Assembly (NCBI GenBank): GCA_977017645.1
Contig: OZ360230.1
Location: 47,988,001-48,052,000 of the forward strand
DNA: 64,000 nucleotides
From: Torpedo marmorata
Lineage: Eukaryota
Direction of reading: 5' to 3'
Positions 26,108 to 59,859 of the stretch are shown here, in pieces (within the stretch, counting starts at the first letter, position 1; every line of letters starts with the position of its first letter). The notes below the pieces were generated by a model. That model worked only from the letters and a program-made list of their open reading frames with translations, was not told the origin of the DNA and ran no database searches. A program made the position numbers and the translations under genes.

Positions 26108-26544
26108 TTAGAGAATAGTTCTGGGATCAGAGTTTCTGTAAGAATGCTCTCCTGGTCCAGGTGATGATGAATTGCTTGGAGGAGTTGGAATACCACTTGC
26201 TCCTGTGCTCTGACACACATACCATTCGCTCAGGTTAGCTGCGTGGGAAGATGTGATGGGATCAAGCTGGGAGGCTGGAGCCGGGGGGTCCCGACCTGAG
26301 TCCGAAGACGGAGACACCAGCGAAGGGGTAGAGGATTCGTAGCCCGAGCTTGGAGGAGGAGATTTGCAGTGGACTTTCATATGCTTACGAAGGGAACTGG
26401 GGTGCGTGTACGATTTATCACAGCCTCTTACTTTGCAGTTATAGGGCTTGTCACTTGTATGCACATGAGAGTGCTTTTTCCTGTCGCTGCTGTTAGCAAA
26501 ACGTCTGTCACAGCCTTCAAACTCGCATTTAAAGGGTTTTTCAC
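26108..26544 (-). CDS. zic4: Zinc finger protein Zic4, coding exon 2 (ZF4, ZF5, C-terminus, stop)
   Basis: Acceptor ttttag|GTGAAAAACCC (AG at 26546-26545), phase 1 and matching exon 1. Encodes [71 protein letters not shown]...NLSEWYV. The CKVRGC ZF5 and the absence of an intron in ZF5 are Zic4/5-type features. TAA at 26110-26108. Confidence 0.95.
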
Positions 26545-29500
26545 CTAAAAGGAAACCACAAGGGGCAGAGTGATGAGTCACAAACGTTAAGGTATTTTCT
26601 TTTCATTATTATAGTCCACTATGAAAGTCACTAACACGCGTTTTAATAAATATCGAAATAACCACTTGAGGAATTATAGTAAAATATTGCATTCACTTTC
26701 TTGTAGATTGAAGTATAATTTCTTCTCGTCGGTCTCCATCATTTAAGCATTCTCCTTGTGATTTACAATAAATTCCCGACACAGCAGAAGGGGGAATAGC
26801 AAAAAAAATAGATACTGATAATTATTTTAATAAAACATGTCAACACCATTCAACCTGATCTTAATGCAAGTAACTATATCTGCAGTAAATATAAAAGAGC
26901 GTGGCTACAGTGTAAAGCTTCACAACTGAATTCGTCTCCCCGAACTCTCAAAATGTCGATTTAATATTACACCGTAATTAGCCAAACGTTCAGAAAGCCG
27001 TTAGAATAATTTGACCTTCACTTGCTAGGTTGAGACGGCCAATCAACGATATTAGTGTAGTACAAGCTAGTAGTAAGTTAGTGGGCCCATGGGGAAGCCC
27101 AGACGCATAAACACTGTTATTGTGCCGTGTCTGGAGCGTCCGACACTACGAGCATGAAGTCTGCTCTGACAATTCCCGAGAGCTCTAAACTCCTCCTGGC
27201 TACTCATTTCTCCTTCTTTACTATTAATGCTGTGTATAAAAGAGTGAGTAATGTAAGATTAACTGCGACCAATCCTTGTTAACTGTCATTTCACCAGCTA
27301 GCTTAGCCTTGGCTGAAATAAAACGTCCCAAAGCCTAACATAACTTTATACTAGATAATTCAGGAAAAGATGGCGACGTGGTGATAAACTCTATCAGCTG
27401 TTTGTGCATTCTAATAAATTATTTTAATATCCATGTTTAATTCCCGTTTTAAACTTTAAACGGCAATATTTTATAAGTGAGGTGACAAAACTACTGAAGC
27501 TTCTGTTTACCCAGAGGCGATCTTTTCATGCTTGTTGAAATAAATAATGTAAAAGGGTCGGGATTTCAATTCAATAAAACCTGCCTATAAAGGACTGAAG
27601 CCAATCAAACGGCATGAATATTTTACAAGATAATTACTTTGTTAATAGAATTACTATACTTGCTATTTTTTATTTAAGAATTTAGTAACATTAGTGTTTT
27701 CAATTTTAAACTGAAAGAGAAATGCAATATTTATCATAATTACAGTGATTAATTGCAACATATGGAGAACGCTATTTAACTGAAATATGGGAATGTGTAA
27801 GCATTCGACGCTACAAAACATTCAGCTGTTTTATTGGTTGCTATATTATTTTAAATAAATAGAAATACGGTCGGTCGAATGAAAGCTCTTGTAAATTAAG
27901 TACTCAGCACTCTAAACTGCTGAGCTGAAGTCGATGAAGTGCTGGGAAAGTTTGTTTAGGCAAGCACACTACAATACTATCAAGTGTCAGACACGCACAG
28001 GCAGCGCGCCTGTTCTGCACCAGCAACATTGCAAGATTTACATGTGTTACATACTTCACGATTTAAAAGTATGGAAACCGAATGATGCCATTGCTTGATA
28101 TTTTTCTAAAATATCTATTTTGCATATTTTGCGACAACACGCCATGCATTTTATTTTTTTTTCATCCCATAAGCAGCAATTTACGGCCGCATCTGTGCTC
28201 TTTCATTTAGAATGTATGAGGAAAAAGTATTTTGAAGTTCATATGTACCCGCGTTTATTCTTGTTAAAACAATGTCACAAACCACCTCTTGATCCGATAT
28301 ACACCGAAAGTTCCATTTGATCTAACCTACACCCGGATTGAGGGGTGAATAGAAGTTTCAGTGGAAAATAGTGTCTCGGTTTAAATTGTGTCTATTGATT
28401 TCACAGAGAATCCCTCTCTCTTTCACCACCCCAAACATTCGCCTAAACCCCCCACCCCCGCCCTTATTCCCTGCACCCCCCCCCCTCCATGTTCCCCTCC
28501 GCCAACTATACTTGGACTTAAAATCGACCAATGTTTTGCAACCGAATAGGTTACAGCGATGTAATATGTTAATCGTTTGAGGAGATACCCGCTATTGCGT
28601 GGGGGTGGGAGTGGGAAGCAGGGATGTTAGGGGAGGGGAGCATTTGGAAGATGGAGAGTAGATTTCGTGGGTCTACATTACCCTTCACTATTTTTTACCC
28701 GAGTAAGGCTACGCACAAGCAGATTGCAATAAAAAGAGCGTGTCAACGACGGATTGAACCGTTGCTCTAAAACCAATTAACCGAGGGGCTTCCAGAGAGT
28801 GTGGAAATTTTACGTGCAGTTTCATTACTTGTATCTTATCCGGTGAAGTTCAAAAGCAGCTTTGAATAAGCTTCGATCTACGCAATTTACTTGCGGCTAA
28901 GTAAAGCTAGCAGATGTTTTTGACACATGTCCAAGTTTCACAAATGGTTCTGCAAAAGGCATTTTTCGAAAAGCTAGGCCCAAGCACTTGCTTTCATTAC
29001 TCTTGAGATTATAACATGTTTAGGGTCATAAATAATGATCCGCGTAGACAGTTGAAAATATTAAATTGAAATAAAAACATTTAAGTTAATGCGTTCATGT
29101 TTTCATATTCTCGCAAAAAAACCCAGAAAATATGCAAAATAATGTTAATAAATCTTCGTCATATGCAAAATTTCCATTAAATATACTTAATATCAAAACA
29201 ACGTTCATAGATATTGGCGGGCAATGCTTCGTGAAAAATAAACGCATTTTAACTGTGTTTGAAAGATATAAATTTATTAGCTTTTAATAAAGCAACACAA
29301 CTTCGCAATTGGCAACTCTAAGATTATTTACAGCTAAAACATTTCAAATTATTTATTGCCCACAACATTACGAAGTTCTCAAAGCTGGGTGATTCATATC
29401 AATGCTGTAAAATTAGGCTATCTTCCAAGACACATAAATGCTAGCTTTAATCTGCGCTGCATTGAAGTCCCACTGGTAAACAAAATCGAAAATATGTTTT

Positions 29501-29569
29501 ATTATTTCGTTAATTTCTGGATACCGAAATGAAATAAACATGAAATAACGACACTTGGAAGGTACTGAC

Positions 29570-30716
29570 CTGTGTGCGTTCTTTTGTGGATCTTGAGATT
29601 TTCTGATCGGGCAAACACTTTGCCGCATCCAGGGAATGGACAGGGAAATGGTTTCTCGCCAGTGTGGACTCTGATGTGATTTACAAGTTTATATTTGGCT
29701 TTGAAAGGCTTTCCTTCTCTTGGACACTCTTCCCAGAAGCAGATATGGTTCGACTGCTCTGGTCCCCCAACGTGTTCCACTGTTACGTGAGTAACAAGTT
29801 CGTGCATCGTGCAAAAAGTTTTTGAGCATGGCTTTTTAGTGACAGGGTCCGGTTCAGTCCACTTGCAGATCAGTTCCTGCTTGATAGGTTGCCTCATATA
29901 GCGAAAGAAAGCGCCTGGACCGTGGTGGGCAGCTAGGTTCATGCCACCGTAGCTATGCAGAGGGGAAGAGGCAAAAGGATCACTCCTGGAACTTGCCACT
30001 TGGCCGTAGTGTTCAGACCTGGCGTACATGTCTCCAGGTAGCCCCAGTCTTAACTGTCCGTTCAGATGGTGTCCAGTGGGGGCTGCATGGGGTGCCTGAT
30101 CATGAAGTCCAGGGAATAGAGTGTGGCTTCCAGCCTCGGGGTGACCATGATGTCCGGGGTAGCTACCTGTTGTTGATACAAACATTCCGTGGTGAGAACT
30201 TGTGCCAGGATATTGATCTGTGAGCCCAGGCATGACTGAGGACGTCAAATCTCTGCGGATGAGGAAGTCTCTACCTGCCGAGATAGCCTGGGCCGTGTAG
30301 CTGGCGTGGGAGTGCGAGACCGAGTAACTGACTGCTGCTGCCGCCTGCGCTGGGCCAAAGGCTGCCGTTGGATTGGAGACAACCTCAGCGGGGCCTGGCA
30401 TATGATGGTGGTGATGATGGTGGTGATGGTGATGGGGATGGGATGGGCTGAGTTTAAGTGCCGCAGCGGCTGCAGGGTGCCCCATGTGTTCAGGCCCGAA
30501 TGGACTCGGCCCCAGGCGGGGTTCTCCAGTACTCTCCCCAGGGTGCGTGTGTGCCATTGAGTGGGGATGGCCGCTGAACCCCGGGAAGCCTGTCATGCTC
30601 TGAGGGGGATGGTGATGGTGGTGGTGGTGATGAGCTCCTGCCAAGTCTACTAATCTCAGCGCTGGGTTTCGTTTGGCGAATGATGGGTCCACCATCGGAC
30701 TCCCCAAAGCTTCCAT
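29570..30716 (-). CDS. zic4: Zinc finger protein Zic4, coding exon 1 (N-terminus, two poly-His tracts, ZF-NC, ZF1-ZF3)
   Basis: [31 protein letters not shown]..., LFPGLH...[30 protein letters not shown] and ZF1-3. Donor CACACAG|gtcagt at 29569. Spliced CDS is 1147+437=1584 nt (527 aa). Head-to-head with Zic1. Confidence 0.93.
29578..29795 (-). repeat. Left arm of a 218-bp perfect inverted repeat (within zic4 exon 1)
   Basis: Its reverse complement is base-for-base identical to 43538-43755. Confidence 0.95.
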
Positions 30717-30924
30717 TCTTATAATGCCTGAATGCAGGAAAATAACAAAATAAACTTTTTTTTTTCCAAAAGTTACCGAACTTTAGAAACTCGCCCTTTG
30801 CCAACGTGGAAAGCCATTCGGTGTAGAGAGTGCAGACGGATAGCAGCAGCAGGACGCATTGAGAAACTGAATTGAGATTCATGAACAGCTTTGCAGCCCG
30901 TCGAGCTCCGCGAGCAACATGCGA

Positions 30925-31085
30925 TCTCATTGGTCAGTTTCCAATGATTGACAGTGCCAGTTACGGACCCCAGACAGGGCACATGCGTATTACACCCAGG
31001 CGGTGTTTGATGGTGGGGGTGGGGAGGTGAGGGGATAGGGTAAGGGGTTGGCAATGGGCAAAGGGGGCGGTGAGGGGTGAAGAGA
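30925..31085 (-). promoter_or_regulatory. Putative zic4 proximal promoter
   Basis: ATTGG 30929-30933, CCAAT 30941-30945, TGATTGACAG (PBX-MEIS/PREP decamer) 30945-30954, and a G-run tract with a GGGCGG box at 31010-31080. These lie 200-350 bp upstream of the ATG. Confidence 0.6.
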
Positions 31086-32793
31086 ACATGGAAAACCCTT
31101 TTTGGCGAAAAGGCGTGGGATTTTTTTTTGCGAGTTTCTTGCAACGTATTAAAGAAAATTTATTAAGAGCAACTGCAACTGCTTTTCGCCTATTTTTTGC
31201 AGTTCTATGCCACTCTAGCTTGAATAGCCAAATTGAAGATCTTTAAAAGTTGATCTGAGCAGAAGAATAAAAAAAATAAATTGCAATTATCCTTTCTATC
31301 TTACGATCATTCACTTCTACCAAAATATGGGTGTTGTGGAATAGTCAACCAAGATAGACTGGAGAGCATTTAATGGTTCTGGTGTACATAAAGTATTTTC
31401 AACTATGAAATTTAATTATATGAGCTGATTATTAATGTGGAAATACTCTTACTTTGGAGGGATTAATAGGGTAAAGGAGTCAGCGGGATTTTTAAAAAAG
31501 AGGTGTTACACTGGTGCTGGTTTCACGGACAAATATACAGTTAGAAGTGAAGGAAAGTTTATCCCTTCCCTGAGCCGGTCACATACCAATATCTGCTTAG
31601 CAACATCAAACATCTTGTCCCGCGCACCGCTTTATTTAGCGGCTTATGCAAGAATTTATTTTTTTGCGGGCGAGAAAGAAGGTTCGGCACCAAATTGAAA
31701 ATGAGGTTATGGCCTGTTATACTTCGGCCGGAAATTAGTGAGTGATTTTTTTTTTTATCTTTCCTGACACTAGCAGACTTCCAGGCGTGTTATGTTTTTT
31801 TGACAAAATCAGACGACTGGTGTTCTTAGCCGCACAGACGATCAAAGAGATCCCCAGTCAGAGGCATCTGTTAACTTTTTTTTCTTCCCCCAGACTGAGG
31901 AAGAAACTTTCTCAGCATGCAATAACTTATTGAGTTCTTTTTGCCCGCAGTCCAGGGTTGGTAATTCTGTAAGCGAGAGTTCAGGGAAGTTTGTGCTTTC
32001 GTGGAAGCCGTTGGATCTGACTTGAAGGTGGGAAAGGGGGAGGGGAGAGGTTCATGTGGAATACTTTTATTTTTTTTAGGCTTTGGACATTTTTTACTTC
32101 AGTGTTGTTTTTTCCTGCAGATTGCCAAGCGATTTGAATGGCTGCCTACATCACTTGGATGCAAAAGTGCTTCGTTTTTAAACAAAAACGTGTTTCTAAT
32201 TCCAAAACACAACTCGCGAAGACAATCCCAGACCGTGCTTCGAGAATCTATACATACTGCGTAATCTGCAAATAGGAAACTCACATCGCTTGCGGTGGAA
32301 AAGAAAGTAAACTGTAGCATGTTATGGGGAACACAGAGAAAAATAACGTGATGATAAATTGCTATTTGCTCGCATCCTTCTTTGGGCACACGTGAATTAA
32401 AGGCCTTTACGCTGCTCTTTATATCAGCCTCACGATTTCATATTTTTCTTCTAATACCGGAATGCAATGCTGGTCACAATCCCTCCCCCAACATACAGTC
32501 TTATGTCTGCATCTGTAACTTGCTCTCGGTTCAGACGTCTGTTTAAGTCGCCCTGAGTACATACGTCTGCCTTCTACGTAAAAATAAGTAGTTTAGACTT
32601 TTTTTCAGAGTAGCGAGACAAAACGGGCTACTAACTCAAAAATGTACATTGTGGCTCCTCAGATTGTTCACCAAGGGTATTAAAGGGGAACGGAAACCTA
32701 GAGCAGCGATATCCGTGGATTTAGGCCGTCGTCCTAAGCTGATCTGCGGCAGAGGTTCAAGCCTGCGGTCTTGCACACAGCAGACCTACAATG

Positions 32794-32795
<2 letters not shown>

Positions 32796-32826
<31 letters not shown>
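32796..32826. repeat. (AG)n microsatellite
   Basis: Direct run. Confidence 0.95.
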
Positions 32827-32830
<4 letters not shown>

Positions 32831-35800
32831 AAGTTTTTCAAAGGGAGGTAGGAGTTATACCGTGGATACAAATGCATGGGGGCGGAGTGGTGTGAGTGAG
32901 AGAGAGATAGAAATGCCAAATTTAAGATGGGAGAGAAATAAGGAGAAAGGCGTGGACGTGCGAGTATATCTAGAGAAACAAGAAAGAAAAATGGGTAAAA
33001 AGTATGATCAGATGAGAACACGTGGGGAGGGATATGGGCATGGAGGTGGGGGAAAATTCACACAGTTTGTCTTCACCCACAGCATGTTGAATATAATGAA
33101 ATGTTCGCTCAATTTGTAAACATAATCTTTCCAAACGTAGAAGACGGGCCAATGAGATAATGCAGAGAAATGTCATTAACGCATATTCACTGTCTAATAG
33201 CAATTTCATGTATAGGTATAAAAGGCTTTGGGATAACTAATAGAATAATACTTGCACTACGGTGCATGTCTTCCCTTCATAAATAGCAAATATTCCAAAT
33301 AGTTGGTTTTGTATTTCTGTTTATTCCCGTATTATGCGCACCTTCCATATTTTGAATCCCTCAGACCATCAAGCGGAATCACAAACCGCGAAAATAATCG
33401 ATAAATCTTTGCGTGTTTTTTTTCACCAAATGCTTTAACGTGCAGCAGAGGAGAATGTAGCGTAGATATGTGAATGCTGACACGTTTATATTTTAGCCTC
33501 CAGGGCTTAACACTGCAGACTTAAAATGGGATTTGTACATGTGCTTCTGCATTACCTGATCAAGCCCCCACCTTGGTGTCGGTTTGTCTGCTGTCTTCCA
33601 AGGATTTTTTCAGTAGCAACTGACAGTCCCTCGAAAAGAAGACAGTGCCAAGGCACGTTTCAATATATAAATGTTTCTGTAAACGTAAATATCAGAGAAA
33701 CATCAGTGAATGCTGTGATAGAATAATATATTTACATTTTGTGATTGTGGAAATATTATTCCACATATGTATGCATTATTACATGCAAAAGTGTCATGGA
33801 CCACTAATTTTCCAGTATTGTTTCATATTTATGAAATTCAAAAATGAGTAAAAAGGAAGAATATTTCATCACGGTAGACTTCTAAGGAAAAATACACAGT
33901 GTGTCATATACACTACGTTCACGTTGTTGCTTCTTTACTGTAAATGCGTTTTAGCCAGATGATGTGTTTTATGATTCAGGTTAAGTATAGAATGTGTACA
34001 GTACGATAATACGTTCACTCACACCTAAACATAAGGTTGGGGTGATTCAGCAATTCCCATTTTAATGTTATGTGATTGATCCTTTCATACAATCACATGT
34101 TTTATTGTTAACGTTGATAAACTATGATATATTTGTTTTGGTCGAAGAAAAAAACAAATTTAGCCCAAATAGTCTGGAAATTAGTATGTTACTTTTGTTT
34201 TTCAAGTATGGAGGGTAGTTTTCTTTTCATATGTGATTAAAATAAGACAAAATAATACGAGGTAGATTTTTTTTCCCTCTTATGGGTGGGCAGTTCACAG
34301 CGTCCTCAACCCATTATAAACAGGAAATTATTACAGAATTCCAGGTTTGAAGACTGTAGGATCAACACTAAAGAAGCCCAACTGAGATGCCAAGAAACTT
34401 TGATTATACCTTTGTGCAGTATAAAATACGGCGTATAAACCTACTAGGAAAGCAATAAATAGGCAAGGTGCTCAACTTTAGTTAAAGCACAAATGAACAG
34501 AGTAAATTCCAAATTATTTTCATGCAATTTTCTTTTCGAGGAACGTATTGGAATAGAACATATTAGGGAAAAACCCTCCCCCTACTTTTTTATAGAAGCC
34601 CAAATGCGGCGATAATTTAATGCAATGTTTTCATAAGTTCTTTTTAATAACGCATTCGATGTGAAAAGGAACTAGAAATCTCGTTCTTCAGGTTCCCAAG
34701 ATTCCCTGCGTTATACTCGTTTCTTTCAGCCCCCTCACAAAATGATTAGCACAATGAACAAGGAAATACTTCATTTTTACTACAGTTTAATTTGGCTAGT
34801 TGCAAGTCTGTGAGTTTGTGCATGTTTGCAGTTTAAATCATAAAGTCTAATCCAAGGATATATTGACTCACATTGTCAACAAACACAATGAACCAATTGC
34901 ATTTCTGGGAAAGAGCAATGATTTCCCTATTAAATTATCCCCCGAAACTTAAAATCGAGCAACGTGAAACCTGTAACAGCAGTTTTGAGAAACAAAATAA
35001 TATGGGCTAGGTTGTCTAATTGCTAGCATCGACTCCACATACTCAAGCTGTGAGTGATTTACGTTAGTAATATATGGTGTTGGAATTTAGTATCATTCTC
35101 TCTTGTCAAGATACATTTGCAAATATTTAATTAAATAAGTTTGATTAAGAAGAGAATGTTGTGTTTACGTACAAAATATATAAACTGTTCAGATGAAATA
35201 ATACATGAATAATATTCCAGTTTAAAAAATGTAGCAAACACTGATACATCGCGGTTAATTAGTAACATCAGTGTGGTGTACTTTAGGCACCGAAGGCAGT
35301 TACTTTTTACCTATGCTGCATTTTTAAATGAGATGTTTATTCTGTACCTCGCCTATATAGTAGCCACTCCAGGCCCCTCCCCCTCGTAACTGACGATATT
35401 AATTTCATGTACCAATAAGTGTTAGACTTTTGTCTGGCTAATTATATTGTTGAAAGTAATTTTCAAACAGAACCAATTGATTTCATTGTTTGGTTTTGCC
35501 TGAGCAGTATGTTTTTCATACATGGAATCCCGTGGACGTTAGCTTTAAAATCTTAACATTAAAACATTATTATTTTATATTTCGTATAACAATTAAACAA
35601 TACACGCATAGAAGGCGAGAATTGAGACAGCTTAATCATTTTCTATAGCTATGGGTTAGTAGACGGAAGAAAGCATTTGTTTCAAAGGAAGAATTAACTT
35701 GTCCCATGGAAAGAGGCTGGTATGTGATAACCAGTTATCACTGTGGCAGAGAAAAAATGGAGTTCCGAATGCAGTTCTAATTGGAGTTAAGATCACTAGC

Positions 35801-36882
35801 TACAACTTTAACTTGTCTCAACGTAAACACGTTGCGTGTAAAAAAAACACGAATTATATATTATATTGAGACAATTCAACACACTTTTCAACGTCGGAAA
35901 TCGATGCACGTGATTAGTTCATTTACCTGCTGCGTTGACCGCGCAGAATGCCAGTGTCCACTATCACAACTGATGTATGACTGGAACCCACTAAAAGGGG
36001 AAAGAAGCTAGAAACAGAAGAACTTACACCATTTAGCACACGATTACGTTTTTGTAGAATGATTATACGAACTGACAATCTACACTTCCCAAGCCGAAAT
36101 TCAACATTGTAACTTTTCTAAACACTATCTTTGCGAATTATATTTAAATATTATACAATCAAACCAAATTTAGGGAATCGATACTTATGAATTCTGATCA
36201 TTTTTTCATGATATTAGTTTGGTGTTATCCTTAAATATGTTCTTAACGGTAACTCTGTCCATTAGTGATGCATTATATTCTTCTTTTACAAACTCGGAAC
36301 ATTTGCGAAGAAAAGATCAACACCTTCAAGTTGCTGCCAAATTACTGCTAACTTTTCACTAGAAACTATTCTTGGTGACACTGAGCCGACAACGCATTCA
36401 GCTAACTTCTGTTGTGTTACGTGAAAGCTTTTCTGAAATGAATTGGAAGGATATAATTGTGATTAAACATTCTATGCAGAGACCTTTACCCCGATATTTA
36501 TGATATAAAAAACACCAAGAAGATTAAAGTGTAAGTCCACATTTATCTAAACTACTTACCCGATTTACATTATACTTCATTCCACCGTAAATCAATAAAA
36601 CATGCAAATATCATAGAATAATATGGACTCCAAATACATAAGGTCGAAGGTTGTGGTTACAATACGATATTCGTCAAATATTAATTCTGCTACTTCCAGG
36701 CAGAGTATATTGATCTACAGCAAACAGCTGTTTGTGGGATGTACTGTCACTAAGTTGTAGAGTATAAACCATAAAAAACAATGTAAATAACCTCAGTTCA
36801 GATTGGAGGTCGAAAACAATGTTCATGCAGATCCCATTGTCTTTGTAAATTATACATATAGGTTGTTAGGTCAGCAGTTAGG

Positions 36883-37018
36883 NNNNNNNNNNNNNNNNNN
36901 NNNNNNNNNNNNNNNNNNNNNNNNNNNNNNNNNNNNNNNNNNNNNNNNNNNNNNNNNNNNNNNNNNNNNNNNNNNNNNNNNNNNNNNNNNNNNNNNNNNN
37001 NNNNNNNNNNNNNNNNNN
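36883..37018. other. N run (136 nt), assembly gap or masked sequence
   Basis: Ns in the sequence. Confidence 0.99.
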
Positions 37019-37364
37019 ATAGCCTATCTCATGAACAAATTACAACTTTATATATTTATTTTTTAATGTGCGATAAAAACATGCTAAGATTTTATTTAAA
37101 AATCCGGAGTTTGTGTACAACGTGGTTTCAAATGTAGTTATGTAAATTCGAATTCATTTTATAACATGCGAATCTGCATTTTAATGTTTCGGTAGCTATT
37201 TTTTAGATGCGAGTAAGAAATTTTGTGATGTTAAATGTCCTACCGTTACTGGAACTAGTTATTTCCAGAGTTAAACAATACTCTCACAATTTTAAGTAAA
37301 CTATGTGAATTCACAGGGTCAACATAACTATGACAGAGTAACTCTCATATTGAAATATGAGTTG

Positions 37365-37505
37365 NNNNNNNNNNNNNNNNNNNNNNNNNNNNNNNNNNNN
37401 NNNNNNNNNNNNNNNNNNNNNNNNNNNNNNNNNNNNNNNNNNNNNNNNNNNNNNNNNNNNNNNNNNNNNNNNNNNNNNNNNNNNNNNNNNNNNNNNNNNN
37501 NNNNN
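37365..37505. other. N run (141 nt), assembly gap or masked sequence
   Basis: Ns in the sequence. Confidence 0.99.
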
Positions 37506-40500
37506 AAACCTGCAGAATGCTTAATGTAACAACGTATTTCGCCGTGAATGTAATTTTGTAAGAGTATGCATTTTATTCCGAAATTACACTGGCAACACTG
37601 GGGCTATTTGACAACCTAAAAAAAAACAGTACAATCGTGGTAACGTTTTCGACAATGTTGCAGATAAGTAGATAATTGAAGCGCTAAATAACTGTGCAGA
37701 TACCAAAGCGACAGCAATGAAGTGGAGCTTAACGTTGCAGGCCGCGTAATCAGGGATCAAATGTTCATTCACTAAATATATATTGCACACTTATATTTTC
37801 TGTTTCGATTTCTTCATGCCAGTTTTTAATGCTACAAAAACCGTAAGATAGTGTTAAAGTGAATATCATGCCAGATCAAATACAAATCCTCTTTGTATTT
37901 TGGATAGTTGAAAAGTTGCATCTTAAATTGTATCCAGTAATTCTTTTATAGATGCAGAAGGTGTAAACACCTTCTTTTCCTCCATTATTGATCTATAAAC
38001 AACTGTAGTGGGCATTGCATGTTGATAACTTCGTTATATTTTAGGCATTTTTTCTTTGTGTTATTTACCTATCATCCTGTTGGCTAAGCATATTTAAATC
38101 AGCTGGTGTTTTAATTTCGTGTCGTACTTGAAATTATCGTCAGAAGCAGATGACTTGGGGTTGAATAAACCTTACAACCTCATTCCTAATTTTTCATCCC
38201 TTCATTCATTCCTAAATCCAAAATTCTGATGAATTTCCAGGTGCAACACGAAAGCGTTTTTGCATAATGTCGTGCAATAAGTTATTGTTCGGCTCAAATG
38301 AAATATCAACACCATCAAAAGTACACCAATTTCCAAAGTTATGCTTTCTTTCAATGTGCAAAGAAAACTCTCCCTTCCCGTAATTCAGCAATATCCGGTT
38401 TTTAAAAACTCCGGGCACTCTTTAAGTTATCCATAGCTGAAGAATAAATTAAGTGAAATGAAAAGAGAATTAGTGGCAGCAACCTGTTTTTATTTCAATT
38501 CTGCGACATCTTGTTATGTTGGGTAAAACCCGTAAAAATATGGCATTGCGAAATGCATATGTAATAGTAAATGCCCTGGAAATATTCCAGAATATGGAAC
38601 TAACTCCGCATGAACAAATGACCCAATATACGAATCGCATCTCTAACAGAGATGTGATGCACAGATCTCAAGGCAGGCAGTCGGATAATGGGTAAAGGCA
38701 AGGGTGACCTTCAAAAGTTCTGCTTCCTGCCCCCAAAAGTTTCTCAGGCAAATCCATGATAGCTCAAATTTTAATTCATCTGCCCTTTTCAGCTCAATAC
38801 TGAGTAGGCACGTTTAGCTATAAATATAATAATAAATCTGTCCAAATTCCAGGTTTTGGCAGTTATTTTAAACAACAGCTGATGATGGACACTTTGTCCG
38901 GAAATCATTAGAGTACCGGCTGAAAATCCGCTTTGTTTTGATGAGATTTTACTTCAGCGCTAGTGTCCAAGTCATACATATTTCCGGTTGCATGGTTAAT
39001 AGGATTTTTTTTTTTCAAACAAAGCACATAGATAGGAAACAGATCACCGAACTACCAGCTACTGAAATCCCGTCGTTTCCATTATATCCCTTACGTTAGT
39101 GTTATAATATTAAAAACGTTTGTGCATTCCGTTTGCTCTTTTAAATATAGAACAATTACATCTTGAACAATTGTTCTCAACTTCGACTTTTTAGTTGCAG
39201 GACAGCTAATATTTTGAAGGTATGCATCTTGTGGCATTGTGTGGCTTTGGCACATGTGGCCGGTCACGGGTCAGGGGTCAAACGATATGGTATTTCAAAA
39301 GTCGGCGACTTCAGAGCTATCCTTGCGTGCAGAAGCCAACTTCATTCAAATCGCTTTTAATAGAGATAAGTATAACAAACGAATCGATAGCACACTGAAG
39401 CAGAGACCAAAGAATGCTATCAACACAGGGAAATTCGGTATCAGAAACATTCAAATTAACTTTTGAATTCACTTAAATGTCATTCCAATTATTGGAATAT
39501 TTGCTTCGAGGAAGAAAGGAAACAAACATGAGTCCATTAACTCAGAATTCTATGGCGTTTGCCGGTAGGATAAACGACACGCTTTACTCGACGCAGTTTT
39601 TGAAGAGCCTTCCACTGTACTAGAACTAACATTAGAACACAAACAATTCAAGTTGCGAGTGTATGTACAAGTGAAGCTGCATTTTAAGGAGAGCAACAGG
39701 CAACACTTTAAAAAAAATAAAACATTGAAAGATTACCTTCAAATTATAAATCAAATTTAAATTTTATATTGAATTCAGGGAAATAACTTGAATTTTAAAT
39801 CAAATAAAAACAATTCCTTTTGTAAGCTATACTTCAGCCTCTAGGCAAATGTCCCCCACCCCCGTTCCTCCCTTCATAGAAAAAAACCCAAATGCTTTGC
39901 TATCCATCGACCGAAAACAATCCGAGGGATAATATCGGTACACACAAGTGCTTTCGAATGGAAATGCATAATTCAAAGCCACTCGCACCTAGTTTTGCTT
40001 TTATTAGAACATGATGGCCCCTGACAAGGGCTATTCTGAGGAAACAAAAATCTGACTGATATCTCTATTCTCTTTTTAGTCAATTGCATTTACATGAAAG
40101 ATGATGGAAATTCAGGGGTCAGGAGTCGTTTAGTATAAGTCACTTGAATACACGTGCCTCTCTTACCGTACTCCACCTGTTGAAGAAGATGTCTTCGATC
40201 ATTTAATTCAGGTAACTGAAGTTAAAAAAAATCTACTTTGTAGCGATAACTAGGTAGTCATTCTTCATTTCGCCTTTTCAAGGTTTCTGGAAGCAGTTAG
40301 GGAATGTATGATGAAGCAGAAATGAGCCGTCAGGATGATATTTTAATGGCTTATATGTCACGTCGGTGCATGCGGCTTTGAACTCAAGCAGCCTGCGTTT
40401 CCTGCGGAGAACGCCGCAAATCCCACTTGATAACTTCTACCATCCTTCAACTTTTAAAATCAGCCCTTCTTTGTATATTGGGAGAAGTAGTCTAAAGATA

Positions 40501-42279
40501 ATGCTATGGGATACGTTTACTTTTCATACACTTAAAGTGTCCCTTTAGAATTTGCACACTCAATGAGCAGTAAATCTTTCTGAATCAAATTGCTCCAGCT
40601 TCTGCTTCTAGACTGCTGTGATTTTAATATCAATGTTTTCAGTATATTGCATCATTTAAAGTAATGCTGTGAGGTTAGCTATTGTAATCACCCAGCAAGA
40701 CAATATTATGTTCCATTTAAATCTTAAGAATGCAGGATACCCAGAGTCCGAACAATGTAGAAAAATAACATTAATTTTTATGCATGTGTGAGATTTATCG
40801 GGTTTGAGTAGTTAGTTGAAACAACCTACGTATCTTCGCTTAAGACAATTTTAGACCATTAAAGCAGTAAAAAAAAATAGGTCAGTACTCTTTTCAATAT
40901 CCATGCCAGTCGCATGATTTCGGCAAAGTAAGCACTCAGCCTCAAATTGCCGTAAATTGGGAGCCCATGAGACATGTATTTTAATTTGTTTTTGCTACAA
41001 GCTCTTCATGTGAACATTGTCGTCAGGCTCCAATCATGTAATGATAAACTTGCTTCCTTGAGCAACAGCGCTGTTGTAAAATGTATCTGGAACTTCGCTG
41101 CCGAGCACCGTCCTAAGGCAGAAAATGAAGTGCCCGGCTTTCGCTAACACCATTACCTTCGTGCGAACATCGTTATTCTAAGTTAACCTGTTGTACTTTA
41201 TTAGGAGATTTAATTTTAAGTATTTATTTAAAAATTAAGCAAGCAAGGGCGTTCGTGTAAATTGGGAAACCACAACGCTGAATTAGGAAGGGACCAGGCA
41301 GCAGGACACAAGAGACTATTTGAAACCAATGTCTTTCCAAAGTGGACTTGTGATGGTTTACTAACGGAGATAAATGTTGAAGGATGCGGTACGACTTCTT
41401 TGTTATAAAATAAGACTTTAACTCAGAGGTATAGCTTCAAGGAAGTTCATTGAAGTGGTGAACAAAAGGTAAATTGAACGATTCCGATTCTTTGTTGGCT
41501 TTTTACCTTTCTATTACAGAGAATGCAATTAGACTTAATGAATATGCAAACCGTTGTCCTCACGTAAATAATGAAATTACTTCACAGGGACATAGCAAAT
41601 GGACTTTAACAAATTTGGGGCAATGGATGGCAAAGTGTAAACTGAAGTGCAAATAAGCGGTATTTTGCTTTACTGACGATGTTCATAAACAAGTTTTTTT
41701 TCCCCTTTCATTGTCCGTAATCAATGGAAAGAACACCACTTTTTATATATATATAAAAGGGGAAAATCCTTACTTGCAGCTATTCCACAATTGTTTGAGA
41801 ACCTATAGATATGTATGGGGCAATTCATTGTCACCATCGTTAAAAAAAAAGGCCCAAGCAAGATGTTTTCAATCGCCTTTTACATGTGGAAGGACAGGTT
41901 AATCAAGGGTTTCGTCTCGAAAACAACCAAGTGTTGTATGTTTGTACTGAATCCAAACATATGCATTTTCCTAACCCAATTCAATAGAGTGTTCTTTCTC
42001 TTTTTGCTCACTCATCTGGGTAAGTGAATTTTCACCGGCGATCAAAAAGCTACTGAACAACAAAGGAAGCCGCCCGCTTTTTTTTTCTAGTCTGGAGTTG
42101 TGGCACATTAACGAATTTCAAACAGTCTGACAAGGGGTGACTGAATTGTGAAGTCGAAGAAGACAAGAGTTTTCTTCTGTTCGCTCTCCCACCCCCTTTC
42201 CCTCCTCCTCTTTCCATATTATAGATATATAAAAAAAGAGAGGAGAGAAAAAGAAAGAAAATCTGGACGGCAATAATTT

Positions 42280-42460
42280 ATCAGGAGCGACTGTCACGCG
42301 CGCACAATACCTGCGATTGATGAGACGAGCGGGCCAATCAAGAGGCAGGATGTGAGCCACGAGCCGTTGATTGGTGCCAGGGCACAACGGGGCAGCGCTA
42401 GGCTGGCCAATAGATGCACACGCCAAGCGCCACGTGACTCCTCCCCCAACTCCCATTCAT
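42280..42460 (+). promoter_or_regulatory. Putative zic1 proximal promoter (CpG-rich, three CCAAT boxes, E-box)
   Basis: CCAAT 42334, ATTGG 42370 and CCAAT 42407 (36-37 bp spacing), plus CACGTGAC at 42431. These lie 350-450 bp upstream of the ATG. Confidence 0.7.
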
Positions 42461-42787
42461 CAAGGGGATGGTGTTGTCTTTTCAATTCATTTATCTGCAG
42501 GAATGATTGCCGCTATCATTCTCGAGCTCACCGCCCGGCTGATGAGGTGAAAGTTTCTCCCCAGGAAGATAAACCGCAAAAGACAATATTGCATGATTTG
42601 CGTTTGCAGAGGGGAAATATCTCCAGCAAATTCCCACACGCTGAAGAGAGAGAAGAGAGAAAAATAAGGAGTTTTTGCAAGTCCTCCAAACAGACTCAGA
42701 GACTATTATATTAAGCAAGTTTCGTTGTGAATTGTTTGTGGCTTGCCTTTATATATATTATTGCTTCTCTACCCCTATCGCCAGACG

Positions 42788-43763
42788 ATGCTTCTGGACG
42801 CTGGACCTCAATATCCTACTCTAGGAGTGACTACCTTCGGATCATCCCGACATCACTCAACAGGCGATGTCAACGATCGGGAAGTGGGACTGGGGATAAA
42901 TCCTTTCGCTGACGGGATGGGTGCTTTTAAAATCAGCCCCAGCACTCACGATCTCGCATCGGGTCAAACTGCCTTCACGTCGCAGGCTCCAGGCTATGCC
43001 GCGGCTCTGGGTCACCACCCCGGCCATGTGAGTTCGTACAGCAGCGCAGCGTTCAACTCGACCCGGGACTTTTTGTTTCGCAATCGGGGCTTCGGGGAAG
43101 CCGCTGCAGCTAGCGCCGGCCACAGCCTGTTCGCTTCGGCCGCGGCTGCGGGTAGTTTCGCGGGACCCCATGGACATACCGACGCTGCAGGCCATCTACT
43201 CTTCCCGGGGCTTCACGAACAGGCGACGACTCACGCTTCTCCCAACGCACATGTAATGAACGGGCAAATGCGTTTAGGGTTTTCTGGGGACGTGTATGGC
43301 AGAGCAGACCAATACAGCCAGGTCACCAGTCCCAGGTCGGACCACTACGCCTCGACCCAGCTGCACAGTTATGGTCCCATGAACATGAACATGGCGGCCC
43401 ACCATGGGGCCGGGGCCTTCTTCCGTTATATGAGGCAGCCCATTAAGCAAGAACTGATATGTAAATGGATAGAGCCCGAACAGTTGACGAATCCTAAAAA
43501 ATCATGCAACAAAACTTTTAGCACGATGCACGAACTGGTTACTCACGTAACAGTGGAACACGTTGGGGGACCAGAGCAGTCGAACCATATCTGCTTCTGG
43601 GAAGAGTGTCCAAGAGAAGGAAAGCCTTTCAAAGCCAAATATAAACTTGTAAATCACATCAGAGTCCACACTGGCGAGAAACCATTTCCCTGTCCATTCC
43701 CTGGATGCGGCAAAGTGTTTGCCCGATCAGAAAATCTCAAGATCCACAAAAGAACTCACACAG
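42788..43763 (+). CDS. zic1: Zinc finger protein Zic1, coding exon 1 (ZOC, ZF-NC, ZF1-ZF3)
   Basis: ATG 42788 opens [18 protein letters not shown], the canonical Zic1 N-terminus. [15 protein letters not shown] at 43052-43087, then [26 protein letters not shown]. Donor CACACAG|gtatgg. Confidence 0.97.
43538..43755 (+). repeat. Right arm of the 218-bp perfect inverted repeat (within zic1 exon 1)
   Basis: Identical to the reverse complement of 29578-29795. Confidence 0.95.
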
Positions 43764-45287
43764 GTATGGTGAATATATTTATAAAAACAGGAGAAGTGAA
43801 ATATTCCGCAATGTTTAGAATCGTTTTAATAAACGGGTCACTCAAAGTATTAATTCAGTTACGATTTTATGAATATATTTGCAAATAAATATGTATGTCG
43901 GAATAAAATTAACATGTTTAGCACTTTGATGTTTCTTAACTCCTGATGCTCCTTCTTCTGGTTCCTGTTCTTTTAAAAATAAGGAAAATATATAGTTACC
44001 GCCGTTCTACGACATTAAATGCGATGCTTAAAATAGCACAAAATTCAAGGAGAATCAGTTAATATAATATATGTCATGGTAGAGTTTATTTTCAATTAAA
44101 TTCTTAATTTTATCTGAACAAGAGAATGCCTATGGTTGCTTAGTTTCGTTATAAATTCACAACCAAACGCGCATATACTTGTGTTTTCACTCCCTCCGGT
44201 TTGGCTAATTCATTAATAGTATTTTTTCTCCACATGCATGTAAATTGATATACATAAAGCTGCGAAATCAACTTTCGTAGATAAAGACGTTTTATTCATG
44301 TAACTATATATGCGTGTAAATATTATGTGCGTGTTTGTGTATGTGTATGAGCGCGCGCCCGAATACATATGGGCATCATACGTGCCCACCTAAACGCATA
44401 CATTTTGGGATTCTTCCAAGTTTATAATCTTATTAAAACTTGATTCACAATGTGCGTTTGTGAAAAAAATGCACTTGACAACAATGTCGATGATAATGGC
44501 ACATAATGGTGAGGTTGTTGTAAAGATCTAGCAAAGTCGAGGTTTAACACTTTCTCGACTGTAAAACCTCCAGGGGCACTTAACAACAATTCACTTCACT
44601 GCATGAGATGTCCACTAACTCTTATTTTAAATAAACAGAATTGGAAACGGTTTAATTAAAGCGAAAATGTGAATAGAATTAACAAATAATCATTTCCGTT
44701 GTCTGTTTAAAATGCTATTTCATCATTTGCGTTACAAAGGCTATATTAGTCTATTGGGGAAGCATTTTTTGTTTCAGGGAGAGTTAATGTTTTAAATAAG
44801 AATTAGAATTCGAAAATTAATCTGGTAATTTTAACTTTATTCAAGATACAGTTACAGTTAAATAAAATATATATAAGCATGTAAGGCCGCGACGGCAGCT
44901 GCAATGTCTTGTAACTAGTTCCTGTCCATAATATAAATTAAGTAAATAATCAACATTATTAATCAGTGTTATTCATCCTTCATAACATCCCAGACAGAGG
45001 GGATGGGAACATAATGTAAACATGCTCCAGTTATTTAGGGTTTGCGAGGTATGGTTGTAAATTCGTGAGGCAGGGTGATCCAAAACACGTATTTGTTTTC
45101 ATGATGGCTGCTTTTCTTTGTTTTTTTAAAAAAATAAGTTTAGTACTTTTATACGTACACACACGCACACACTCAGTCATACACACCCACCCACCCACAT
45201 ACACAGACACACACACCCTCGCACATTTAGCATCCATAATATAGATGTAAATAATGAATTTCCTGAGAACTCAAATGGTATTAATAA

Positions 45288-45557
<270 letters not shown>

Positions 45558-45869: not shown

Positions 45870-46067
45870 GTGCACGAAGCATCCTCTCAAGGGTCACAGC
45901 CTTCTCCTGCGGCAAGTTCTGGGTACGAATCCTCAACACCCCCTACCATCGTGTCGCCCTCCACAGAAAACCAGACCAACAGTTCAATGTCCCCGACATC
46001 TTCTGCAGTTCACCACACATCCAACCACAGCACGCTTTCATCGAACTTTAACGAATGGTACGTTTAA
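45870..46067 (+). CDS. zic1: Zic1 coding exon 3 (Ser/Thr-rich C-terminus ending NFNEWYV)
   Basis: tttttatag|GTGCACGAA, encoding [25 protein letters not shown]...[10 protein letters not shown]. Total CDS is 976+164+198=1338 nt (445 aa). Confidence 0.96.
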
Positions 46068-55926: not shown

Positions 55927-56084
55927 TAGATTTAGATTAGATTTCAGATTTATTGTCAGAGTACATTCATGATGACATCACATACAACCCTGAGATTCCT
56001 TTTTCCTGCAGGCACGGTAGAATTACCACTAATTGGTAGTGCAAAAATTAAATTGTACACAGCGTATACATGTAAACAAACAAA
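55927..56084 (-). mobile_element. Rex1/Babar-type LINE 3' UTR and tail fragment
   Basis: Closely matches about 63549-63703 (agatttcagatttattgtcagagtaca...acatcacatacaaccctgagattc...gaattaccactaattggtagt...catgtaaacaaacaaa), which is attached to a Rex1-type ORF end. Confidence 0.85.
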
Positions 56085-56121: not shown

Positions 56122-58189
56122 ATGGATGTGGAAAATCTTTGGGAATCACCCGAACCTGATACTTTAAAAAAGGCTAAAAAGGAACAGTTAGTGGTTATAG
56201 CAACAGAGTTGGGCATTGCTTCTGTAAAACCATCAATACAAAAGGCAGAGATTGGGAAAAAATTTGCCAAATACTATATAAAAGGGAAAAAGTTTGAGGA
56301 GAGCGTGTTAGAGCAGTTTCCCAAGAGTAAACCTTCTGAAAACATATAGTTGGAACTGAAGAAATTGGAATTGGAATTGGAGCAAAAGAAATTAGACAGG
56401 GAATTGGAACAAAAGAGATTAGTCTTAGAGATAGAGGAGAACATTAGGCAATATGAGCTGGAAAAGATTAAGTTGGAAAATGAGAGGAGACAAGAAGAGC
56501 ACCAAGATCAAATTTGTGGTCCTGTTAAGAGGTTTTTGGCCAGTAGAGAAGTTAGGTTGGTTCCTCCATTTGAGGAGGTGGAAATAGATAAGTACTTCCA
56601 ACATTTTGAAAAGGTGGTAGTGAAATTAAAATGGTCACAAGACCAATGGTCTCTTATGTTACAAAGTGTAATTAAAGGAAAAGCTCAGCAAGCTTATTGT
56701 ACTCTTAACATGGAGCAAGCTGCTGATTATGAAATGGTGAAAAAGGCTATACTCCAGGATTATGAGTTAGTTCCAGAGGCTTATAGACAGAAGTTTAGAA
56801 ATTTAAAAAGATCAGCAACACAATCTTACACAGAGTTTGCCTATGAAAAGGTTGTGTGTTTTGACCGGTGGTGCACATCTAAGGCAGTAAACAATGATTA
56901 CAATCAATTGAGAGAATTGATACAAATTGAGGAGATAGAAAGGTGTGTTTCTGAGGATATTAAGGCATACTTAGATGAAAAGGAGGTAAAAGCTTGGCAA
57001 AATTCAACTAAGTTAGCAGATGAATATGCTTTAACCCACAAGCCTAAGTGGACGTCAGACAGAATTTTCCAAAAGTGCACTGTGGATAATCAGAAGCAAG
57101 TGGAAAGTAAATTTGGAAGCGGTGTTACGGAAAGAGATAAAGAGAAGTGGAAAAGGGTAAACCCTTTGGGTCCCATTTGCCACTACTGTAGGAAGGCTGG
57201 TCATATGCTAGCAAGCTGTCCAGTGTTGAAAAAGAAGAGAGAAAAGGATGCAACACCTAATGCTTGTATTGAGAGTGAGAAGAGGCATAACACCCAGGAA
57301 GGAGACAAATTTACTGACAAAGTTAGGGATGTATTTAAACCTTTTGTGACTGATGGTTTTGTTTCAGTTAAGGCAGGAGCAAAGCAAGTTCCAGTGAAAA
57401 TCTTGCGAGATACTGGAGCTGCTCAGTCACTTGTGTTAGATAGTGTCTTGAAATTTTGTGAAGCCACTGACACCGGTGAAATGAATTTAATTCAAGGAAC
57501 TCGGGGTGATGTTAAGTCCATTCCTTTGCATAAAATAGTGTTCAACTCAGCCTTGGTGAAAGGACCTATTATAATAGGAGTGAGATTAGAGTTGCCAGTA
57601 GAAGGAGTTTCACTGTTGCTAGGCAATGACTTGGCTGAGGGTAAAGTAGTTCCTGCAGTGCGAATAACCACTAAGCCAGTCACTGATAAGTCAGAAAAAG
57701 ACTCTGATATTTATCCGGCATGTGCCATAACCAGGGCCATGTCCAAGAAAAATGACACTGCAGAGAAGGCAGTGGAAAATAAATTGGTGAAAGAAAAAGT
57801 CGGTGATAATCAAAAACACCTGGAAAACGTTGAGCAATTTCCTGTGTTACACCCATACACTGATAAGACACCTAAAGGCACTGATTTGTCACTATCACGA
57901 TAGGAGCTAATAGCAAGATGAAAGGAGGATCCTGATTTTGATGAGGTGAGGGATAAGGTTCTCTCCTCTCCTGTAGTAGGACAGGAGATTAAGAAGGTGC
58001 CAGTGGGTTATTATGAAAAAAGATGGGGTGTTGATGAGAAAGTGGAGACCATGTGATGTTCCTGCCAGTGAAGAATGGGCAGTAGCGCAGCAGGTTGTGA
58101 TCCCTAAAGTATATAGGGACGAAATAATAACTTTTGCTCATAGCACACCCTTAGGTGGCCACCTTGGGGTGAAGAAAACTACACGGAAG
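56122..58189 (+). mobile_element. Defective Ty3/Gypsy (Gmr1-like) LTR retrotransposon internal region: gag (SCAN-like capsid, CCHC), protease, start of integrase
   Basis: ATG 56122, with in-frame stops at 56347 and 57901. VPPFEE..DKYFQHFEKV, YELVPEAYRQKFR, CHYCRKAGHMLASC zinc knuckle and LRDTGAAQS aspartic protease motif. After a further stop and a frameshift (about 58015) comes DGVLMRKW...VVIPKVYRDEIITFAHSTPLGGHLGVKKT, the N-half of the integrase H2C2 domain. Confidence 0.9.
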
Positions 58190-59595: not shown

Positions 59596-59859
59596 ATGCA
59601 GGAGAGATCAGTGATTAAGAGAAGAATTTGGTGCAGCAATATGGATAGTACCTTGCTCATATTTCCTCTGTCTGGTTTTACTGGCATTGATGGCACTTTA
59701 TGCTCTTAACTTCCTTGATAATATTTATCCAACGTGAGGGAGAATTAACAAGGATAGCAAGATTGTAAATGATGAGTTGTCCTTCCAATGATTTCAACAG
59801 TCTGCTTTCATACTCGTTCTCATGCTCAATCATACATGCATTGCTTATCCAGTGAGATT

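What the first reader, a model, noticed from the sequence alone, without database searches (positions are those of the whole stretch)
29568..43765. 218-bp perfect nucleotide identity between zic4 and zic1 zinc-finger exons: concerted evolution by gene conversion
Seen: the reverse complement of 29578-29795 equals 43538-43755 with no mismatch. The wider tract 29568-29822 / 43511-43765 has only 3 mismatches in 255 bp and ends at the shared GT donor. Internal controls with identical amino acids are diverged: 11 of 19 codons differ in [19 protein letters not shown] just upstream, and 13 of 25 codons differ in [25 protein letters not shown] of exon 2. Known: the Zic1/Zic4 head-to-head pair is shared across jawed vertebrates, so silent sites should be near saturation. 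Inference: recent or recurrent intrachromosomal (fold-back) gene conversion keeps the ZF1 C-half, ZF2 and ZF3 identical, coupling the DNA-binding core of two ancient transcription factors while their N- and C-termini evolve separately. I cannot tell from here whether this has been reported for this lineage.
Basis: partly seen in the sequence, partly recalled or inferred. Interest (0 to 1): 0.88.

Follow-up and report, generated by a model that had tools for sequence, protein, structure and literature searches.

The report
Shark Zic1/Zic4 zinc-finger gene conversion
In this cartilaginous fish, two neighbouring developmental genes that split before vertebrates diversified share a 218-base stretch letter for letter, most likely because one copy has overwritten the other: a known process, apparently not yet noted for this gene pair.

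Summary
Observation confirmed: the arms match at 218 of 218 bases, and at 252 of 255 up to the exon-1 donor. The genes are true zic1 and zic4 orthologues of a cartilaginous fish. Silent sites differ at 0 of 71 codons in the core against 115 of 192 outside the tract, so protein constraint or chance cannot explain it.

Best reading (0.85): non-allelic gene conversion between close inverted paralogues. It is confined to the longest indel-free shared block (272 nt; the others are 116 and 96 nt, 77-78% identical). It is probably a near-neutral by-product of protein conservation: ZF4 stays protein-identical with saturated silent sites.

Pan-vertebrate ultraconservation fails at protein level (20 of 85 sites vary). 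Gene models of two bird species switch from zic1 to the zic4 intron here, a hint of long shared DNA in birds. Ray-finned fishes diverged.

Not shown: orthologue DNA, raw reads, donor direction, true recency. GC3 is not raised. Precedents: oxytocin/vasopressin exon 2, engrailed/invected, Capitella Dlx. No Zic report was found in the open-access library searched.

The parts
29570..30716 (-). zic4 (subclass B) coding exon 1, from the first in-frame ATG to the phase-1 intron; encodes the N-terminus, ZFNC and ZF1-ZF3
   Evidence: 93% identity to Scyliorhinus canicula Zic4; groups with Zic4 on the flank tree, support 99 with S. canicula
26108..26544 (-). zic4 exon 2: ZF4, ZF5 and subclass-B C-terminus to the stop (protein 527 aa)
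   Evidence: colinear with S. canicula Zic4
42788..43763 (+). zic1 (subclass A) coding exon 1: N-terminus, ZFNC, ZF1-ZF3
   Evidence: 95% identity to Callorhinchus milii Zic1; flank tree; Pfam zf_ZIC 216-262, zf-C2H2_15 269-298, zf-C2H2 300-324
45307..45470 (+). zic1 exon 2 (ZF4-ZF5); silent sites saturated against zic4, so it serves as internal control
   Evidence: 28 of 50 identical-residue degenerate codons differ
45870..46067 (+). zic1 exon 3 to the stop (protein 445 aa)
29578..29795 (-). zic4 arm, 218-bp perfect core
43538..43755 (+). zic1 arm, 218-bp perfect core (end of ZF1, ZF2, most of ZF3)
29568..29839 (-). zic4 arm of the 272-nt indel-free homologous block (97% identical); the 255-nt homogenised tract is 29568-29822; it carries a private Ser-to-Cys codon at 29813
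   Evidence: S. canicula Zic4 has Ser there
43494..43765 (+). zic1 arm of the 272-nt block, bounded upstream by a 2-codon indel in the ZF1 loop and downstream by the non-homologous intron; homogenised tract 43511-43765
43384..43479 (+). unconverted 96-nt homologous block (ZFNC and start of ZF1), 77% identical to zic4 29848-29943
45304..45419 (+). unconverted 116-nt homologous block (ZF4), 78% identical to zic4 26432-26547
36883..37505 (.). two assembly gaps (N runs 36883-37018 and 37365-37505) in the 13.65-kb spacer between the arms

Best explanation
Non-allelic gene conversion between the inverted, 13.65-kb-apart paralogues zic1 and zic4 has overwritten about 255 bp of the zinc-finger exon. 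How it most likely works: (1, shown) selection holds ZF1 C-half to ZF3 nearly invariant in both proteins and free of indels, leaving one 272-nt colinear block. (2, inferred) A DNA break in one arm is repaired from the nearby other arm without crossover; copying stops at the ZF1-loop indel, where the subclasses differ, and at the non-homologous intron. (3, inferred) Conversion changes no residue, so it is tolerated, and each event resets silent divergence and keeps the block recombinogenic. The 116- and 96-nt blocks are too short and have escaped. (4, inferred) Crossovers would invert the spacer and swap N-termini between subclasses; they appear not to persist, since N- and C-termini are paired normally here. 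The identity is more likely a by-product of protein conservation plus proximity than a selected coupling device.
For: Sharp fall of silent divergence from saturation to 2 differences in about 53 synonymous sites. The flank tree puts the two genes in subclasses A and B, each with support 100, so they are not a recent duplication (quick tree, 59 chosen rows, SH-aLRT only). Only the longest indel-free block is homogenised: 272 nt at 97% against 116 nt at 78% and 96 nt at 77%. Tract codons are diverse (four-fold third bases A13 T9 C7 G6), so codon bias is not the cause. No Rfam hit in the window and no unusual fold (z +0.54). Mismatches sit at the edges, as layered tracts would give (p 0.011). Of 8 named bird models that pair a Zic1 N-terminus with intron read-through, 3 (Accipiter nisus P0124; Nipponia nippon P0199, P0201) run into the intron that 5 Zic4 models carry; an identical stretch between arms produces such switches. 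Same pattern published for inverted Capitella Dlx homeoboxes, also without a GC rise (PMC3199776, passages).
Against: The diagnostic test (paralogues closer than orthologues at DNA level) could not be run: no vertebrate DNA collection was available. GC3 is not raised (0.45 in the tract vs 0.57 and 0.53 in the 5' parts of exon 1; Fisher p 0.16 against all other codons); the same lack led Gwee et al. to prefer nucleotide-level selection for elephant-shark vasotocin/oxytocin exon 2 (PMC2656470, passages). Identity does not extend into the intron beyond GT. No lineage-specific residue shared by Zic1 and Zic4 was found: in ray-finned fishes only E32D occurs in both sets, and same-species pairs differ at 6-7 tract residues. 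Zic2/Zic5 show no protein-level convergence (6.2 mean differences). A single bird arm-switch needs only one shared k-mer, which arises by chance in 9-16% of simulations at k=21 and about 1% at k=31. Raw reads were not seen.
Confidence: 0.85

Rival explanations
1. Purifying selection at the nucleotide level: both exons carry an overlapping element (splicing, enhancer, RNA structure or microRNA sites) frozen since the tandem duplication or since early cartilaginous fishes.
For: GC3 not elevated. Identity is exonic and ends at the donor. Sharks mutate slowly (7e-10 per base per generation; PMC10587355, abstract and passages). The same argument was made for elephant-shark vasotocin/oxytocin (PMC2656470).
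Against: The tract is not invariant across vertebrates even as protein: 20 of 85 positions (15 inside the core) vary among 107 named Zic1/Zic4 proteins, including C. milii Zic1. Zic2, 3, 5 and the Zic6-like protein, which descend from the same ancestral exon, differ at 4-14 residues on average from Zic1. Equally conserved protein blocks on either side are saturated, and a silent mismatch lies 8 nt from the donor. No Rfam family and no folding signal. It would need about 46 silent sites frozen in two genes at once.
Confidence: 0.07
2. Assembly, gap-filling or polishing artefact: one arm's sequence was written into both loci.
For: The assembly is scaffolded, with gaps between the arms. Bird gene models show that assemblies do switch arms at this place. 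The private Cys codon follows a T run and could be an error.
Against: An assembler can only merge or switch arms that already share long words. Outside the tract the longest identical run is 20 nt. At 56-60% codon divergence the two separate shared blocks needed to enter and leave occur in 0.4-1% of simulations at k=21 and at most 0.014% at k=31. Both genes have proper gene-specific flanks on both sides and no N in or near the tract. An artefact could erase a few mismatches but could hardly create the signal.
Confidence: 0.06
3. Recent whole-gene duplication, or codon bias and protein constraint alone.
For: The tract protein is nearly invariant.
Against: Flanks are saturated and each gene has its own orthologues across jawed vertebrates. 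The probability of 71 identical codons under local codon usage is about 1e-30.
Confidence: 0.01

Closest known systems
Oxytocin/vasopressin-family exon 2 (bovine, human, coelacanth, elephant shark); PMC2656470, passages read
   Same: Old linked vertebrate paralogues; one exon almost identical at DNA level (197 bp in cattle, 97-98% in elephant shark and coelacanth) while the rest diverged; GC3 not raised in the fish cases; conversion versus nucleotide-level selection is debated.
   Different: Here the genes are transcription factors, head-to-head, and the duplication predates the vertebrate genome duplications (PMC7403390, PMC6175831, passages). The tract is part of an exon and does not enter the intron, whereas bovine identity includes 135 bp of intron.
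Capitella teleta Dlxa/Dlxb homeobox conversion (PMC3199776, passages), and hexapod engrailed/invected (known only as cited there; the original paper was not held)
   Same: Closely linked inverted transcription-factor paralogues; mosaic conversion limited to the most conserved DNA-binding region (150 bp in Dlx); no GC rise; present in some lineages only.
   Different: Invertebrate homeoboxes in tail-to-tail order; the Dlx tract includes some intron. That paper found no conversion in vertebrate Dlx pairs; the case here is a vertebrate C2H2 zinc-finger pair.
Long-lived mammalian concerted pairs BMP8A/B, DDX19A/B, TUBG1/2 (PMC2720389, abstract and passages)
   Same: Segmental homogenisation of linked paralogues lasting over 100 Myr, one pair inverted.
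   Different: Those tracts span exons plus introns and show raised GC; that screen required an intron match, so an exon-only tract like this one would be excluded by design; 'zic' does not occur in its main text. The Zic pair is several times older (age recalled).
Zic1/Zic4 head-to-head pair, subclass A/B (PMC7403390, PMC4467302, PMC6175831, passages)
   Same: Same genes and arrangement, from a tandem duplication before the vertebrate genome duplications.
   Different: The passages read mention no gene conversion or nucleotide identity; the chick paper notes only high similarity in the finger region (PMC2908108).

Membership tests
Vertebrate Zic1/Zic4 gene pair | Five Zic-type C2H2 fingers; subclass A and subclass B partners; divergent head-to-head order; intron after ZF3 | tested here: met
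   nearest solved structure human ZIC3 2RPC
Non-allelic gene conversion between paralogues | Bounded tract with far lower synonymous divergence than the flanks of the same gene pair | tested here: met
   3 of 82 vs 115 of 192 codons, p 1e-20; dS 0.038 vs saturated
Non-allelic gene conversion between paralogues | Duplication older than the tract's identity (flanks group by gene) | tested here: met
   protein flank tree, subclasses supported at 100 (quick method, SH-aLRT only)
Non-allelic gene conversion between paralogues | Paralogues closer than orthologues in the tract at DNA level (tract tree groups by species) | not testable with these tools
   no vertebrate DNA collection on hand; cluster member look-up unavailable
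Non-allelic gene conversion between paralogues | Lineage-specific amino-acid changes shared by both paralogues (protein proxy) | tested here: inconclusive
   Zic1-Zic4 3.06 mean differences vs Zic1-Zic2 3.75 and Zic4-Zic5 5.34, but this also fits shared ancestral residues; no shared derived change in ray-finned fishes beyond E32D; C. milii Zic4, the best test, was not among the hits
Non-allelic gene conversion between paralogues | Raised GC3 from GC-biased repair (common, not obligatory) | tested here: not met
   GC3 0.45 in tract vs 0.53-0.57 upstream, p 0.16; also absent in Capitella Dlx
Non-allelic gene conversion between paralogues | Polymorphisms shared by both arms; sequence confirmed in raw reads | not testable with these tools
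   single assembled sequence only
Exonic ultraconserved element | At least 200 bp identical between orthologues of distant vertebrates | tested here: not met
   protein proxy only: 15 core positions vary among 107 named Zic1/Zic4 proteins; conservation limited to cartilaginous fishes is not excluded
Structured RNA element in the exon | Rfam match or folding stability above shuffles | tested here: not met
   0 Rfam hits in 64,000 bases at gathering thresholds; z +0.54, 147 of 200 shuffles fold as well

The most novel reading that the evidence does not exclude
Zic1 and Zic4 have kept exchanging this exon segment since before the vertebrate genome duplications, independently in cartilaginous fishes and birds (perhaps squamates), while ray-finned fishes and amphibians escaped. 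That would be among the longest-lived concerted evolution known for a vertebrate transcription-factor pair and a natural experiment on why conversion persists or stops. The same inverted repeat could also flip the 13.65-kb spacer and swap activation domains between subclasses A and B; the Accipiter and Nipponia chimeras might include a real case.
Probability: 0.3. Interest if true: 0.72.

Novelty: new member of a known kind. Interest (0 to 1): 0.52.

Why it matters
If confirmed, it extends partial concerted evolution to a developmental transcription-factor pair older than the vertebrate genome duplications. It gives a clean test bed for the open conversion-versus-selection argument raised for oxytocin/vasotocin exon 2 in elephant shark and coelacanth, because here a tract without raised GC3 sits beside two saturated control blocks of equal protein conservation. 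Practically, it warns that zinc-finger-based nucleotide trees of Zic genes, probes or guides aimed at ZF2-3, short-read mapping and assemblies can confuse zic1 with zic4; chimeric bird gene models already exist in public databases. The functional effect on the proteins is probably small.

Tried and rejected
Donor direction: core codons looked zic4-like (log-likelihood ratio +10.5), but the held-out control failed (zic1 blocks scored up to +9.8, and 9 of 11 zic4 blocks scored negative), so no donor is claimed. Protein identity as proof of conversion: rejected, because ZF4 is also protein-identical in shark (1 of 1), birds (13 of 13), turtles (3 of 3) and coelacanth/lungfish (2 of 2), although its silent sites are saturated in this window. 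The lineage table (Zic4 tract identical to this Zic1: shark 1 of 1, birds 17 of 18, squamates 5 of 6, turtles 0 of 3, marsupial 0 of 1, amphibians 0 of 11, coelacanth/lungfish 0 of 2, ray-finned 0 of 34) is only suggestive; rows are 90%-identity clusters and not independent. GC-biased conversion signature: absent. RNA structure: none. Search for more chimeras with the zic4-intron read-through: 6 hits among 112 candidates, 1 with a Zic1 N-terminus, none new. Cluster members (other shark Zic4 proteins) could not be listed. The careful tree did not finish; the quick tree was used, with 59 rows chosen by hand (57 of the 205 named hits plus the two window proteins). 30 of 235 hits had no name and were left out of all counts; 14 named hits lacked a complete tract by my pattern. 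Literature: searches 'zic1+zic4+gene conversion' (1 paper, irrelevant), 'zic1+concerted evolution' (same paper), 'gene conversion+zic1+shark' (0), and searches found no report on Zic conversion. The library lacks most subscription papers, including the main Zic phylogeny papers, which I did not see. The supplement of PMC2908108 could not be read; no other supplements were opened.
Full report
Observation. The reverse complement of 29578-29795 equals 43538-43755 at 218 of 218 bases; the wider 255-nt tract has three mismatches (zic1 43520, 43537, 43756) and ends at the shared GT donor. The gene models are zic1 on + (42788-43763, 45307-45470, 45870-46067; 445 aa) and zic4 on - (30716-29570, 26544-26108; 527 aa). 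Best hits are Scyliorhinus canicula Zic4 (93%) and Callorhinchus milii Zic1 (95%), so the window is from a cartilaginous fish. The tract covers codons 242-325 of zic1: the second half of ZF1, ZF2 and ZF3. Two N gaps lie in the spacer, none in either gene.

More than chance. Among codons with the same residue and more than one codon choice, 3 of 82 differ in the tract (one is the exon-junction codon) against 115 of 192 elsewhere (Fisher p 1e-20); in the core 0 of 71 differ where about 29 identical ones are expected at saturation. Four-fold sites outside differ at 56 of 82 (corrected distance about 1.8, lower limit 1.07). Tract dS is 0.038 (0.005-0.137). Simulated tracts at 60% codon divergence gave a longest run of 16 nt on average and 50 at most in 50,000 trials.

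The genes are old paralogues. A protein tree without the tract separates Zic1/2/3 from Zic4/5/6-like with support 100 and places each window gene with its shark or chimaera orthologue (quick method, 59 hand-chosen rows). The literature dates the tandem duplication before the vertebrate genome duplications (PMC7403390 and PMC6175831, passages). So something has acted on this tract alone.

Anatomy that points to the mechanism. The two genes share three indel-free blocks in the finger region: 272 nt (97% identical), 116 nt (78%) and 96 nt (77%). Only the longest is homogenised. It is bounded by a two-codon indel in the ZF1 loop and by the intron. A minimum of roughly 130-230 bp of near-perfect homology for efficient conversion in mammalian cells is recalled, not read; it would fall between these lengths. 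The three mismatches sit at the edges (chance 0.011 under uniform placement, a post hoc test), as expected if central positions are converted more often or more recently. I infer break repair from the nearby inverted copy without crossover, tolerated because it changes no residue and self-sustaining because it resets divergence. Whether the template is the same chromatid (fold-back), the sister or the homologue cannot be told.

How recent. Not settled. On a constant clock and a duplication age of about 500 Myr (recalled), the tract's divergence is about 2% and at most about 13% of the total: roughly 10 and at most 65 Myr. Sharks are slow (7e-10 per generation in the epaulette shark; PMC10587355, abstract and passages). 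On an assumed grid of 1e-9, 3e-10 and 1e-10 per site per year the point estimates are 19, 63 and 189 Myr. One old event cannot be excluded from this window alone.

Evidence from other species, protein only. Among 107 named Zic1 and Zic4 proteins, 20 of 85 tract positions vary, 15 within the core, so the tract is not a pan-vertebrate ultraconserved element. Zic4 is identical to this Zic1 across the tract in shark (1 of 1), birds (17 of 18) and squamates (5 of 6) but not in ray-finned fishes (0 of 34), amphibians (0 of 11), turtles (0 of 3), coelacanth/lungfish (0 of 2) or the one marsupial. Ray-finned Zic1 and Zic4 have drifted in different directions (6-7 differences in same-species pairs), so the 5' half is not being converted there. 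This pattern is only suggestive, because ZF4 is also protein-identical in most of these groups, and in this window it is so without DNA identity. More specific: mis-annotated bird models read through the exon-1 donor. Five with a Zic4 N-terminus share one read-through; five with a Zic1 N-terminus share another; three more (Accipiter nisus P0124; Nipponia nippon P0199 and P0201) join a Zic1 N-terminus to the zic4-type read-through (P0199 rests on three residues only). The window's own introns begin in the same two ways. This is what arm-switching at a shared stretch gives, or a real inversion. It shows at least one long identical word in birds, not whole-tract identity.

Against, and rivals. 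GC3 is lower, not higher, in the tract (0.45 vs 0.53-0.57; p 0.16). Gwee et al. used this same lack to favour nucleotide-level selection for elephant-shark vasotocin/oxytocin exon 2 (PMC2656470, passages), but conversion without a GC rise is reported for Capitella Dlx (PMC3199776, passages). Selection on an overlapping element has no support from Rfam or folding, and would have to freeze about 46 silent sites in two genes while sparing neighbours of equal protein conservation. An artefact needs two shared long words to enter and leave the other arm, which saturated arms give in at most 1% (k=21) or 0.014% (k=31) of simulations; the longest identical run outside the tract is 20 nt. A codon-usage test for the donor failed its control and was dropped. 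The decisive DNA comparison with orthologues, and raw reads, were not available.

Function. ZF4-5 are unconverted, ZF1 in the related GLI does not contact DNA (PMC2837044, passages), and selection already keeps the fingers alike. Subclass differences in activation map to domains outside the fingers (PMC7403390, passages). Conversion here probably has little effect on the proteins, beyond possibly purging mild changes; the private Ser-to-Cys codon at the zic4 tract edge (29813) is either such a not-yet-overwritten change or an error.

Known or new. It works like the oxytocin/vasopressin exon 2, engrailed/invected (second-hand, via PMC3199776) and Capitella Dlx cases, and like the long-lived mammalian pairs of Carson and Scherer, whose screen required an intron match and does not mention Zic in its main text (PMC2720389). 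Ten full-text searches of the open-access library found no report for Zic genes; subscription papers on Zic phylogeny were not seen, so prior mention cannot be excluded. Verdict: real, most likely gene conversion (0.85), a new and unusually old member of a known kind; interest 0.52, rising to about 0.72 if orthologue DNA shows independent, continuing exchange in sharks and birds.

Noticed in passing
public proteins P0124 (Accipiter nisus), P0199 and P0201 (Nipponia nippon): Models named Zic1 join a Zic1 N-terminus to the zic4-type intron read-through at the tract: misassembly at a shared stretch, or a true inversion of the spacer.
   Followed up: partly
public protein P0157 (Neopelma) and P0138 (Aptenodytes): Bird Zic1 models that break or are garbled inside the tract; may reflect assembly gaps at the repeat or ordinary GC-rich gaps.
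   Followed up: no
window 29813 (- strand): zic4 has a Cys codon where zic1 and S. canicula Zic4 have Ser, next to a T run; no Cys at this site among 107 named Zic1/Zic4 proteins. Private mutation or sequencing error.
   Followed up: partly
window 36883-37505: The two assembly gaps start about 216 nt from the centre of symmetry of the inverted repeat (36666.5); no long hairpin was found there, so probably coincidence.
   Followed up: partly
window 30728-30760 (- strand): A pyrimidine-rich stretch ending in AG lies 12 nt upstream of the zic4 ATG, suggesting an upstream untranslated or alternative exon; S. canicula Zic4 starts two residues earlier.
   Followed up: no
window 45339-45365 vs 26486-26512: A 20-nt identical run inside exon 2 (ZF4), the longest outside the tract; compatible with chance at this divergence, possibly a relic of an older conversion.
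   Followed up: partly
public proteins P0185, P0192, P0207, P0228 (shark and ray Zic3) and P0096 (C. milii Zic6-like): Three shark Zic3 proteins and the chimaera Zic6-like protein share Gln in ZF2 and Ile before the ZF2 histidines, unlike most bony-vertebrate Zic3; could be a trace of exchange in the zic3/zic6 pair.
   Followed up: no
window 59792-61720: Two adjacent copies of a LINE-type reverse-transcriptase fragment (RVT_1 and ALKBH8_N domains; 91% identical over 688 nt).
   Followed up: partly
window 56350-57903: 517-codon open frame with a SCAN-like domain and a zinc knuckle, resembling the gag region of an LTR retrotransposon; 55928-56084 and 63549-63702 are 89% alike and may be its terminal repeats.
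   Followed up: partly
public proteins P0235 (Alligator, named ZIC 1) and P0055 (Anas, named ZIC 4): By sequence these look like Zic2 and a partly duplicated Zic5 model: probable misnaming.
   Followed up: no
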